This document shows, one piece after another, positions 37,423 to 37,466 of a DNA stretch of 64,000 nucleotides. Numbering within the stretch: position 1 is the stretch's first letter; every line of letters begins with the position of its first letter. Location of the stretch: contig JAKAJU010000072.1 in NCBI GenBank assembly GCA_021813655.1, forward strand, positions 853-64,852, written 5' to 3'. The notes under the pieces are model-generated. The model saw nothing but the letters and a program-made list of their open reading frames with translations. It made no database searches and was not told the DNA's origin. The position numbers were made by a program, and so were the translations under genes. Source of the stretch: Chloroflexota bacterium. Lineage in GTDB: Bacteria > Chloroflexota > Limnocylindria > Limnocylindrales > CSP1-4.

Positions 37423-37466
37423 GCATACTGCACATCCGTGCAGGCCCGCACGGATGTGCAGTATGC
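37423..37466. promoter_or_regulatory. 44-bp dyad: 19-bp perfect arms GCATACTGCACATCCGTGC / GCACGGATGTGCAGTATGC around an AGGCCC spacer, about 45 bp upstream of the tkt-RLP operon
   Basis: Read directly. No U-tract follows. Positioned as an operator or 5'-UTR structure. Confidence 0.5.

What the first reader, a model, noticed from the sequence alone, without database searches (positions are those of the whole stretch)
37423..37466. Perfect 19-bp-arm dyad upstream of the transketolase-RLP operon
GCATACTGCACATCCGTGC-AGGCCC-GCACGGATGTGCAGTATGC is an exceptionally long perfect inverted repeat for a genome of this GC content. It lies about 45 bp 5' of the first operon gene. It is a candidate operator, plausibly for the SorC regulator encoded inside the operon, or a 5'-UTR attenuator hairpin.
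Basis: seen in the sequence. Interest (0 to 1): 0.5.

Follow-up and report, generated by a model that had tools for sequence, protein, structure and literature searches.

The report
SorC/DeoR-type tandem operator on promoter
The long perfect palindrome is real, but its working parts are ordinary: a promoter -10 box followed by two 14-bp binding sites for the sugar-sensing repressor encoded in the same operon. The exceptional perfection is a quirk of this one lineage.

Summary
It is far beyond chance and identical in two independent metagenome assemblies.

It lies 43 nt upstream of the ATG (37379, minus strand) of a split-transketolase / RuBisCO-like protein / SorC / MtnA / MtnK / sugar-ABC operon.

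About 30 related loci from four bacterial groups show what is conserved:
- an extended -10 box (TGGCATACT here);
- two tandem 14-bp palindromes right after it, TGCAC-N4-GTGCA (TGAAC-N4-GTTCA in other clades), 18-19 bp centre to centre.

The tandem sites track the SorC gene, not the GntR gene. The operon's SorC is closest to B. subtilis DeoR, whose published 39-bp operator contains the same two motifs. The half-site variant also follows the repressor's recognition helix.

The 44-bp perfection is unique to this lineage. All 12 non-core symmetric positions match here, against 0-6 in 25 other sites. The closest relatives (89-90% TktN identity) carry the two sites as direct repeats.

It is a new member of a known kind, of modest interest. 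No binding or transcription-start experiment exists.

The parts
37423..37466 (.). 44-bp near-perfect palindrome: 19-nt perfect arms plus AGGCCC centre.
   Evidence: Identical in two ENA assemblies.
37447..37460 (-). Operator O1, the promoter-side half-operator. It reads TGCAC-ATCC-GTGCG on the minus strand, with one mismatch to the motif.
   Evidence: Motif scan. Conserved position in relatives.
37429..37442 (-). Operator O2, the gene-side half-operator. It reads TGCAC-GGAT-GTGCA on the minus strand, a perfect match, 18 bp centre to centre from O1.
   Evidence: O2 is the better conserved site in all relatives.
37460..37468 (-). Inferred extended -10 promoter element, TGG-CATACT on the minus strand. 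Its last T is the first base of O1. The predicted start site is about 37451-37455 (inferred, not measured).
   Evidence: GTGGCATACT is conserved in L001, L003 and L172. L176 has TGGCATAAT and L175 has TGGCACAAT. More distant relatives have canonical TTGACA-N17/18-TATGCT or TATACT in the same place. The simple sigma-70 scan found no -35/-10 pair in the window.
37389..37394 (-). Shine-Dalgarno GAGGTG, 9 nt before the TktN ATG.
   Evidence: Sequence. CCGAGGTGA is conserved in L001, L172, L175, L177 and L178.
36450..37379 (-). First operon gene: transketolase N-terminal subunit, 309 aa.
   Evidence: Pfam PF00456. ENA gene call of 309 aa. P0001 is 100% identical.
35431..36453 (-). Transketolase C-terminal subunit, 340 aa.
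   Evidence: Pfam PF02779/PF02780. ENA gene call.
34250..35434 (-). RuBisCO-like protein, 394 aa. It is nearest to MtnW but below the family cut-off.
   Evidence: Pfam PF00016. NCBIfam 232 bits, below the cut-off of 409.
33237..34247 (-). SorC-family regulator of the DeoR subclass, the proposed cognate repressor. Because it is encoded in the operon it would be autoregulated.
   Evidence: Pfam PF04198 1e-39 plus an HTH. Best solved relative is B. subtilis DeoR 8r7y at 5.5e-25, aligned over the full length. NCBIfam DeoR 133.7 bits, below the cut-off of 420. Recognition helix SRSTISR.
22867..33300 (-). Rest of the operon, all on the minus strand:
- class II aldolase, 32542-33300;
- MtnA isomerase, 31382-32425;
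- aldolase/SDR fusion, about 29370-31400;
- sugar-binding protein, 28110-29255;
- ABC ATPase, 26529-28034;
- MtnK kinase, 24181-25407;
- GntR/HutC regulator, 22867-23676.
   Evidence: Pfam. NCBIfam: MtnA 392 bits (cut-off 279) and MtnK 372 bits (cut-off 275). Synteny in L003-L005.

Best explanation
The dyad is the promoter-operator region of the transketolase-RLP operon.

A sigma-70-type extended -10 box (TGGCATACT, minus strand, 37468-37460) runs straight into two tandem 14-bp palindromes, O1 (37460-37447) and O2 (37442-37429). Each has the form TGCAC-N4-GTGCA, and their centres are 18 bp apart.

By analogy with B. subtilis DeoR, the SorC/DeoR-subclass repressor encoded as the fourth gene of the operon binds as a dimer of dimers, one dimer per palindrome. 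That covers the -10 edge, the start site and roughly the first 30 transcribed bases, so RNA polymerase cannot initiate or clear the promoter. A phosphorylated sugar intermediate of the MtnK/MtnA pathway would bind the sugar-binding domain and release the repressor. Because the repressor gene is in the operon, the circuit is negatively autoregulated.

What is shown by sequence comparison: the conserved architecture, its association with SorC, and its resemblance to the DeoR operator. What is inferred: the start site, binding, stoichiometry and inducer.

The exceptional 44-bp perfection is a recent, lineage-specific overlay on this ordinary operator. The most likely cause is a hairpin-templated (template-switch) conversion that copied the reverse complement of the upstream arm, the -10 flank plus O1, over the downstream arm. 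That step is inference.
For: 1. Conserved architecture. A -10-like box followed by two tandem TG[C/A]AC-N4-GT[G/T]CA sites, 18-19 bp apart, lies upstream of the orthologous operon in several groups: Limnocylindria-type Chloroflexi (L001-L005, L007, L010, L172, L174-L178), Anaerolineae (L014, L027, L049), Acidimicrobiia (L008, L009, L082) and Deinococcota (L018, L021, L024, L026). In the distant clades the sites follow canonical promoters. Examples are TTGACA-N18-TATGCT, TTGCGG-N17-TATCCT, and TTGACA-N17-TATACT in L075.

2. Association with SorC. At 3 or fewer total mismatches, 0.5 of 49 loci are expected to have a tandem site by chance. The site is present in 8 of 13 SorC-positive loci and in 0 of 18 long SorC-negative loci (Fisher p = 1.6e-4; 12/13 against 0/18 at 5 or fewer mismatches). 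Enemella L025 has two GntR genes, no SorC and no site.

3. A pattern-only metagenome scan recovered the tandem site upstream of homologous SBP/ABC/MtnK/MtnA genes in 8 more contigs. In L075 it lies directly upstream of a SorC-like N-terminus.

4. The window's SorC aligns over its full length with B. subtilis DeoR (8r7y, 5.5e-25), and its recognition helix SRSTISR resembles DeoR's SRPTVSR. I read the two R residues as the equivalents of DeoR's DNA-contacting R34 and R39, assuming a 5-residue offset between chain and native numbering. The published DeoR operator ATTGAACAAAATTTCAATTACCAATTTACATATGTTCAA matches the same 14-bp motif twice, with 1 and 2 mismatches. DeoR binds only the whole operator, and does so as a tetramer (PMC11229326).

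5. The half-site variant follows the recognition helix. SRSTISR goes with TGCAC and SRVKVTR goes with TGAAC/CGAAC, across organismal phylogeny.

6. The perfection is lineage specific. All 12 non-core symmetric pairs match in the window (chance 5e-7), against 0-6 of 12 in 25 other sites. The closest relatives with DNA, L172 (90% TktN identity) and L001 (89%), have O1 and O2 as direct repeats TGCACGAACGTGC(A) and no mirrored -10.
Against: - There is no experimental binding, start-site or expression data for this or any related locus.
- The simple sigma-70 scan finds no -35/-10 pair in the window. The promoter therefore rests on an extended -10 and on conservation alone.
- The 18-19 bp spacing between the two sites differs from about 22 bp in B. 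subtilis DeoR, so the tetramer geometry cannot simply be transferred.
- The loci used for the association test are phylogenetically related, so the Fisher p-value overstates independence.
- The link between helix and half-site rests on only two regulator clades. B. subtilis (SRPTVSR, TGAAC) shows the mapping is not residue-simple.
- L017 has SorC but no detectable tandem site. L027 has the site but no SorC within 10 kb.
- The template-switch origin is not demonstrated. In the nearest relatives both spacers are GAAC, so at least the O1 spacer must also have changed in the window lineage.
Confidence: 0.78

Rival explanations
1. The dyad acts mainly as an RNA hairpin on the operon (minus) strand. 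It could be a 5'-UTR attenuator or stabiliser. Alternatively it could be a U-less terminator or insulator that stops read-through from the upstream pyridine-nucleotide-disulfide oxidoreductase gene (37772-39115, same strand).
For: The sense-strand RNA folds into a 20-bp stem with a 4-nt loop. The centroid is -38.7 kcal/mol, and the 104-nt region has z = -4.0 against shuffles. The single DNA mismatch is a G.U wobble on this strand. The upstream gene is co-oriented, so read-through RNA would contain the whole hairpin.
Against: - The long hairpin is absent from every relative, including those with 86-90% identical TktN. What is conserved is the half-site sequence itself across phyla, which is typical of protein recognition rather than base pairing.
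- The conserved -10 box forms the outer part of the upstream arm. The predicted start site therefore lies inside the dyad, and the operon mRNA would carry at most a stem of about 8-10 bp.
- No U-tract follows and no terminator-like site was found.
- Rfam gave only spurious miRNA-hairpin hits far below threshold.
Confidence: 0.1
2. The perfect 44-bp symmetry is itself selected. It might give a higher-affinity, fully symmetric operator for a C2-symmetric tetramer. It might allow cruciform extrusion. Or the mirrored CATACT on the plus strand might drive a second, opposing promoter toward the small ORF at 37644(+).
For: Twelve of 12 non-core positions are symmetric, with a chance probability of about 5e-7. 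The mirrored copy creates a CATACT hexamer on the plus strand at 37424-37429. An ORF with a strong SD (GGGAGG) starts at 37644(+). Two unexamined metagenome sites (L120, L123) also have mirrored spacers.
Against: - None of about 30 bona fide sites upstream of the orthologous operon shows extended symmetry, so it is not required for regulation.
- The plus-strand CATACT lacks the TGn extension and any -35.
- The small ORF is not called in the ENA annotation and runs antisense into the neighbouring gene.
- A single mutational event explains 12 concerted matches more simply than 12 selected substitutions.
Confidence: 0.1
3. The dyad is the operator of the GntR/HutC-family regulator encoded at the distal end of the operon (22867-23676).
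For: A GntR/HutC gene belongs to the cluster. In L007 it sits directly upstream of the promoter region.
Against: - The tandem motif is present in Anaerolineae, Acidimicrobiia and Deinococcota loci that have SorC but no GntR homologue within the locus. It is absent from Enemella L025, which has two GntR homologues and no SorC.
- From my own knowledge of the family, the motif does not resemble HutC-type GT-N-TA-N-AC or TGTA-N2-TACA sites.
- The motif matches the DeoR operator instead.
Confidence: 0.03
4. The dyad is a repeated or mobile element (REP/MITE-like) or an assembly artefact, with no regulatory role.
For: Long perfect palindromes are typical of REP-like elements and of some assembly chimeras.
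Against: - It is a single copy in 64 kb.
- It is identical inside long contigs from two independent assemblies.
- Its core is positionally orthologous to sites in about 30 related loci.
Confidence: 0.02

Closest known systems
Bacillus subtilis DeoR and its dra-nupC-pdp operator (SorC family, DeoR subclass; PMC11229326)
   Same: - The regulator has the same architecture: a short N-terminal HTH plus a PF04198 sugar-binding domain. It aligns over its full length at 5.5e-25, and the recognition helix is of the SRxTxSR type.
- The operator is bipartite, about 32-39 bp long, and made of two 14-bp TGAAC-N4-GTTCA-like palindromes.
- One half-operator is often degenerate.
- The operator overlaps the promoter.
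- The expected inducer is a phosphosugar from the regulated pathway.
   Different: - The half-site is TGCAC rather than TGAAC.
- The sites are 18 bp apart centre to centre, not about 22.
- The operator covers the -10 and start site rather than -60 to -21.
- The regulator gene is inside the operon rather than upstream of it.
- The protein scores 133.7 bits against an equivalog cut-off of 420, so it is not a DeoR orthologue.
- The regulated pathway differs: MtnK/MtnA/RLP/transketolase rather than deoxyribonucleoside use.
Bacillus subtilis CggR and its gapA operator (SorC family, CggR subclass)
   Same: A tetramer (dimer of dimers) binds a tandem 45-bp operator located downstream of the start site (+32 to +77). 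The repressor gene is the first gene of the operon it represses. One half-operator is much stronger than the other.
   Different: CggR has a winged-helix DNA-binding domain. Its effector domain matches the window protein only weakly (5.5e-5). Its operator repeats (CGGGAC-N6-TGTC) do not match the motif found here.
E. coli LsrR and the lsr intergenic operators (SorC family)
   Same: LsrR is a DeoR-subclass homologue (2.7e-15). It represses a sugar-like-molecule ABC importer and kinase operon, is released by the phosphorylated product of the pathway kinase, and has two binding boxes (PMC5137460).
   Different: Sequence similarity is lower. The box sequences reported there (AACAAT / AAGATTTAA) are not a clean tandem palindrome, and the two operons are divergent.
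Quasipalindrome correction by template switching (a mutational mechanism, cited from my own knowledge and not tested here)
   Same: An imperfect inverted repeat becomes perfect in one event. The unpaired central loop stays asymmetric, as with the one central mismatch here.
   Different: No ancestral sequence is available close enough to show the event. The nearest relatives differ in both spacers.

Membership tests
SorC-family (DeoR-subclass) repressor/operator system | The regulator has an N-terminal HTH and a C-terminal PF04198 sugar-binding (NagB-like) domain. | tested here: met
   Pfam Sugar-bind 1e-39 plus HTH hits. Full-length alignment to DeoR 8r7y, SorC 2w48 and LsrR 4go1.
SorC-family (DeoR-subclass) repressor/operator system | The DNA-binding domain is DeoR-type (a short HTH with a DeoR-like SRxTxSR recognition helix), not the CggR winged helix. 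| tested here: met
   SRSTISR aligns with DeoR SRPTVSR and SorC YRTTISR. I read its two R residues as the equivalents of DeoR R34 and R39, assuming a 5-residue offset between chain and native numbering. CggR matches only in the effector domain.
SorC-family (DeoR-subclass) repressor/operator system | The operator is bipartite: two half-operators, each a short palindrome with TGAAC-like half-sites. | tested here: met
   O1 and O2 match TG[C/A]AC-N4-GT[G/T]CA with 1 and 0 mismatches. The published DeoR operator matches the same motif twice.
SorC-family (DeoR-subclass) repressor/operator system | The two half-operators are spaced as in B. subtilis DeoR, about 22 bp (two helical turns). | tested here: not met
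   Spacing is 18 bp in the window and 18-19 bp in about 30 relatives, against 22 bp in DeoR. This is a variant geometry.
SorC-family (DeoR-subclass) repressor/operator system | The site co-occurs with the regulator gene across genomes. | tested here: met
   8/13 SorC-positive against 0/18 SorC-negative loci, p = 1.6e-4. The loci are not phylogenetically independent.
SorC-family (DeoR-subclass) repressor/operator system | The protein binds the site as a tetramer and is released by a phosphosugar effector. | not testable with these tools
   This needs EMSA or footprinting, mass photometry and ligand titration.
B. subtilis DeoR orthologue (NCBIfam NF053881 equivalog) | The whole-protein score reaches the curated cut-off of 420 bits. 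| tested here: not met
   133.7 bits. It is a family member, not an orthologue.
Operator overlapping a sigma-70 promoter | The -10 (and -35) elements and the start site overlap the binding sites. | tested here: inconclusive
   The extended -10 TGGCATACT is conserved in close relatives, and canonical promoters occupy the same place in distant ones. No -35 was found by the scan, and no start-site data exist.
Intrinsic (Rho-independent) terminator | A GC-rich hairpin is followed by a U-tract. | tested here: not met
   No terminator-like site on either strand in 37200-37900. The hairpin is followed by ACCCGCUCGG.
Known structured RNA (Rfam 15) | A match reaches a family's gathering score. | tested here: not met
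   Only miRNA-type hairpin hits at 16-24 bits, against gathering scores of 79-197.
GntR/HutC operator | The site co-occurs with the GntR gene. | tested here: not met
   The site is present without GntR in three other clades, and absent from L025, which has two GntR genes.
REP/MITE-like repeated palindrome | Many copies are dispersed in the genome. | tested here: inconclusive
   It is a single copy in the 64-kb window. The rest of the source genome was not available.

The most novel reading that the evidence does not exclude
The perfect 44-bp symmetry is not a neutral accident but adds a second layer of control in this lineage. The same sequence would act as a SorC operator in DNA. It would also act as a very stable 20-bp hairpin in RNA that reads through from the upstream sulfur-related genes, or as a cruciform, insulating the operon or tuning the two opposed CATACT elements. 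If the symmetry is instead neutral, it would be a clean natural example of template-switch 'perfection' of a transcription-factor operator.
Probability: 0.1. Interest if true: 0.5.

Novelty: new member of a known kind. Interest (0 to 1): 0.3.

Why it matters
The result gives a concrete, testable regulatory model for a widespread but uncharacterised operon of uncultured Chloroflexota and other phyla. That operon encodes a sugar ABC importer, MtnK, MtnA, aldolases, a split transketolase and a RuBisCO-like protein.

It also extends the recently solved DeoR/CggR tetramer-on-tandem-operator picture to a new branch, with a TGCAC half-site and 18-bp spacing. The operator motif can serve as a regulon marker when working out what this RLP pathway does.

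The palindrome's perfection itself is probably a mutational curiosity.

Tried and rejected
- The first homologue search used a query one base out of frame (ATG taken as 37380 instead of 37379). It returned nothing, so one of the three searches was wasted. It was repeated correctly.
- Most of the 120 stretches were period-10 tandem repeats such as (TGCACnnnnG)n. Only the matches with 18-19 bp spacing were informative. The scan cannot say whether the window's exact dyad occurs elsewhere.
- The simple promoter and terminator scan found nothing in 37200-37900.
- Rfam found nothing meaningful.
- Literature searches for this RLP-transketolase cluster found no description of it.
- The LsrR paper gave box fragments only, not a usable consensus.
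- The closest relative, P0002 (90% identity), has no DNA on file.
- **Direction of the template switch.** I first argued that the upstream arm was fully ancestral. L172 and L001 show both spacers as GAAC, so the window's O1 spacer has changed too, and I weakened the argument accordingly.
- **The 656-aa 'transketolase' ORF (35431-37401)** was rejected as a gene. It is two genes in different frames.

Full report
**Observation**

The sequence GCATACTGCACATCCGTGC-AGGCCC-GCACGGATGTGCAGTATGC is at 37423-37466. The repeat finder scores it as 22-nt arms, 95% complementary, with no spacer. It is therefore a 44-bp palindrome with one central mismatch.

The arm has no other copy in the window with up to 3 mismatches, and no match appeared in 100 shuffles. 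For a 71.7% GC sequence of 64 kb, about 7e-5 such perfect 19-bp inverted repeats are expected.

The exact TktC protein of the window is encoded on contigs of two ENA assemblies, ERZ27237554 and ERZ27237541. Their 420-nt intergenic region is identical to the window, dyad included. The feature is real and non-random.

**Context**

Codon-position GC analysis and Pfam/NCBIfam scans show a long minus-strand operon.

| Gene | Coordinates (minus strand) |
|---|---|
| Transketolase N subunit (ATG at 37379) | 36450-37379 |
| Transketolase C subunit | 35431-36453 |
| RuBisCO-like protein | 34250-35434 |
| SorC-family regulator | 33237-34247 |
| Class II aldolase | 32542-33300 |
| MtnA isomerase | 31382-32425 |
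| Aldolase/SDR fusion | about 29370-31400 |
| Sugar-binding protein | 28110-29255 |
| ABC ATPase | 26529-28034 |
| MtnK kinase | 24181-25407 |
| GntR/HutC regulator | 22867-23676 |

MtnA (392 bits, cut-off 279) and MtnK (372 bits, cut-off 275) pass their NCBIfam cut-offs. The RLP is nearest to MtnW but scores 232 bits against a cut-off of 409. The 656-aa 'transketolase' ORF is an artefact of two genes in different frames. The ENA gene calls agree with 309 and 340 aa.

The dyad lies 43 nt upstream of the TktN ATG. It is about 300 nt downstream of a co-oriented pyridine-nucleotide-disulfide oxidoreductase gene.

**Internal anatomy**

Read on the operon strand, the dyad is:

GC-ATAC-TGCAC-ATCC-GTGCG-GGCC-TGCAC-GGAT-GTGCA-GTATGC

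It contains two 14-bp palindromes of the form TGCAC-N4-GTGCA. O1 is at 37460-37447 and O2 at 37442-37429, with centres 18 bp apart. These are the only two matches to that motif in the window.

**Comparative evidence**

A genome scan with the RLP found 49 loci. The nearest are MAGs labelled Chloroflexi or Ca. Limnocylindrales, with 69-83% RLP identity. They share the gene order TktN-TktC-RLP-SorC-aldolase-MtnA and onward.

The region upstream of TktN, or of the first gene where the order differs, always shows a -10-like box followed by two tandem sites. This holds for:
- Limnocylindria-type loci L001-L005, L007 and L010;
- Anaerolineae L014, L027 and L049 (TGAAC-N4-GTTCA);
- Acidimicrobiia L008 and L009;
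- Deinococcota L018, L021, L024 and L026.

In the distant clades the sites follow textbook promoters:
- TTGACA-N18-TATGCT in L014;
- TTGACT-N17-TATTCT in L049;
- TTGCGG-N17-TATCCT in L018;
- TTGCAG-N17-TACGCT in L008.

In the window and its close relatives the box is an extended -10. It reads TGGCATACT in the window, L001, L003 and L172, TGGCATAAT in L176 and TGGCACAAT in L175. In the window and most of these relatives its last T is the first T of O1; in L003 about five bases separate the two. I therefore place the -10 at 37468-37460 and predict a start site near 37451-37455, inside the dyad. This is inferred. The simple sigma-70 scan found no -35/-10 pair here.

**Which protein binds**

A profile search of all loci found SorC homologues in 14 loci and GntR homologues in only 2. 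At a threshold where shuffled sequence gives 0.5 positive loci out of 49, the tandem site occurs in 8 of 13 SorC-positive loci and in 0 of 18 long SorC-negative loci (Fisher p = 1.6e-4). At a looser threshold the counts are 12/13 against 0/18.

Four further positive loci do not settle the question either way. Three are contigs that end before SorC could be seen, and L027 has no SorC within reach. Enemella L025, with two GntR genes and no SorC, has no site. The loci are related to one another, so the p-value is only indicative.

A pattern-only scan of metagenome contigs was mostly swamped by period-10 tandem repeats. It still recovered the tandem site upstream of homologous SBP/ABC/MtnK/MtnA genes in L067, L082, L099, L113, L115, L144, L146 and L169. 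In L075 the site follows TTGACA-N17-TATACT and precedes a SorC-like N-terminus.

The window's SorC aligns over its full length with B. subtilis DeoR (8r7y, 5.5e-25), then with K. pneumoniae SorC and E. coli LsrR. CggR matches only weakly, and only in the effector domain.

The recognition helix is SRSTISR, against SRPTVSR in DeoR. Both Arg positions, which I equate with DeoR's DNA-contacting R34 and R39 assuming a 5-residue offset between chain and native numbering, are kept.

The published DeoR operator is ATTGAACAAAATTTCAATTACCAATTTACATATGTTCAA. DeoR binds it only as a whole, and as a tetramer (PMC11229326). It matches the motif at positions 3 and 25, with 1 and 2 mismatches, 22 bp apart.

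Regulators with the helix SRSTISR (Limnocylindria, Acidimicrobiia) go with TGCAC. Those with SRVKVTR (Anaerolineae, Deinococcota) go with TGAAC/CGAAC. This is suggestive but rests on two clades.

**Mechanism**

Part of this is shown and part inferred. By analogy with DeoR and CggR, a SorC/DeoR-type dimer of dimers occupies O1 and O2. It covers the -10 edge, the start site and roughly the first 30 transcribed bases, and it blocks initiation.

A pathway phosphosugar would release the repressor. Because the regulator gene sits inside the operon, the circuit is autoregulated.

O2 is the better conserved site everywhere and O1 is often degenerate. This resembles the strong and weak half-operators described for CggR and DeoR. 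The 18-19 bp spacing differs from DeoR's 22 bp, so this is a variant geometry.

**Why the palindrome is so perfect**

Apart from the 10 core pairs that any two such palindromes provide, there are 12 further positions: the spacers, the linker and the 6-nt flanks. All 12 are symmetric in the window, with a chance probability of about 5e-7. Among 25 other bona fide sites the count is 0-6 of 12.

None of the additional close relatives shows the extended symmetry. L172 (TktN 90% identical) and L001 (89%) have O1 and O2 as direct repeats, TGCACGAACGTGC(A), with no mirrored -10.

The upstream flank GCATAC is the conserved -10, so the downstream GTATGC is its derived mirror image. The only asymmetric position lies in the central loop.

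The simplest reading is one hairpin-templated (template-switch) conversion in a recent ancestor. This is inference. Both spacers differ from the GAAC of the nearest relatives, so more than one step is needed.

**Rivals**

- **RNA hairpin.** The fold is strong (centroid -38.7 kcal/mol). But the hairpin is not conserved, and the predicted start site lies inside it. No U-tract follows, and no RNA family matches. It could still impede read-through from the upstream gene as a side effect.
- **GntR operator.** Disfavoured by the co-occurrence data.
- **Repeated element or artefact.** Disfavoured by the single copy and the two independent assemblies.
- **Selected symmetry.** This covers a higher-affinity operator, a cruciform, or an opposing plus-strand CATACT promoter toward the small ORF at 37644. 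It cannot be excluded, but no relative needs it.

**Verdict**

The attenuator alternative is not supported.

This is a new member of a known kind: a DeoR-subclass SorC tandem operator with a TGCAC half-site and 18-bp spacing. Its perfection is a lineage-specific quirk. Interest is modest (0.3). All functional statements still need EMSA or footprinting and start-site mapping.

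Noticed in passing
window 52962-52995: A second perfect palindrome, AGAACCGGATCGCGCCC|GGGCGCGATCCGGTTCT (17-nt arms, no spacer). It lies 41 nt after the stop of ORF 51714-52922(+) and is followed by TTGCGTT. It looks like a transcription terminator.
   Followed up: partly
window 28063-28100: Perfect 16-nt arms made only of G and C, with a 6-nt loop (CGCCGCCCGGCGCGCC / GGCGCGCCGGGCGGCG). They sit in the short gap between the sugar-binding-protein gene and the ABC ATPase gene of the same operon. This may be an intercistronic mRNA hairpin.
   Followed up: no
window 37644-37994 (+): A small ORF with a strong Shine-Dalgarno (GGGAGG, 6 nt upstream) and a hydrophobic N-terminus (MIDLSYLAAAAAAVVVFLLAVIAAIVSLW...). 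It lies between the dyad and the upstream gene and runs antisense into the oxidoreductase gene. The ENA annotation does not call it.
   Followed up: partly
window 35431-37401 (-): The 656-aa 'transketolase' ORF is spurious in its first half. The enzyme is split into a 309-aa N subunit and a 340-aa C subunit in different frames, with a 4-nt overlap.
   Followed up: yes
window 22867-37379 (-); loci L001-L049: The gene set is a sugar ABC importer, MtnK, MtnA, class II aldolases, a split transketolase and an MtnW-like RLP. It recurs in Chloroflexota, Acidimicrobiia and Deinococcota, and the TktN-TktC-RLP core also in Bacillota and Myxococcota MAGs. Two literature searches found no description of it. 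It looks like uptake and catabolism of a 5-methylthio- or 5-deoxy-ribose-like sugar.
   Followed up: partly
window 37772-41328; L170 1-2682: Upstream neighbours form a sulfur-related cluster: a DsrE-like protein, a pyridine-nucleotide-disulfide oxidoreductase (called as 406 aa in ENA against the 447-aa ORF), an ArsR-type HTH-rhodanese protein and a class V aminotransferase (cysteine desulfurase-like).
   Followed up: no
L001 44-75; L172 2880-2911; L167 448-478: In the closest relatives the two operator sites are exact direct repeats, including the spacer (TGCACGAACGTGC). The two half-operators therefore seem to be homogenised in these lineages too, but in the direct orientation.
   Followed up: partly
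L100 483-533 and 874-924: A low-GC metagenome contig carries two inverted copies, 390 bp apart, of a roughly 50-bp perfect palindrome built on the same TGCAC-N4-GTGCG core (GTGTGCTTATGCACGAATGTGCG-N5-CGCACATTCGTGCATAAGCACAC). Its nature is unknown.
   Followed up: no
L029/L030 9613, L032 3397: Veillonella RLP loci lack a detectable SorC homologue and the transketolase genes. They carry a single perfect TGAACCTTGGTTCA about 390 bp upstream of the RLP gene. This may be chance or a different regulator.
   Followed up: no
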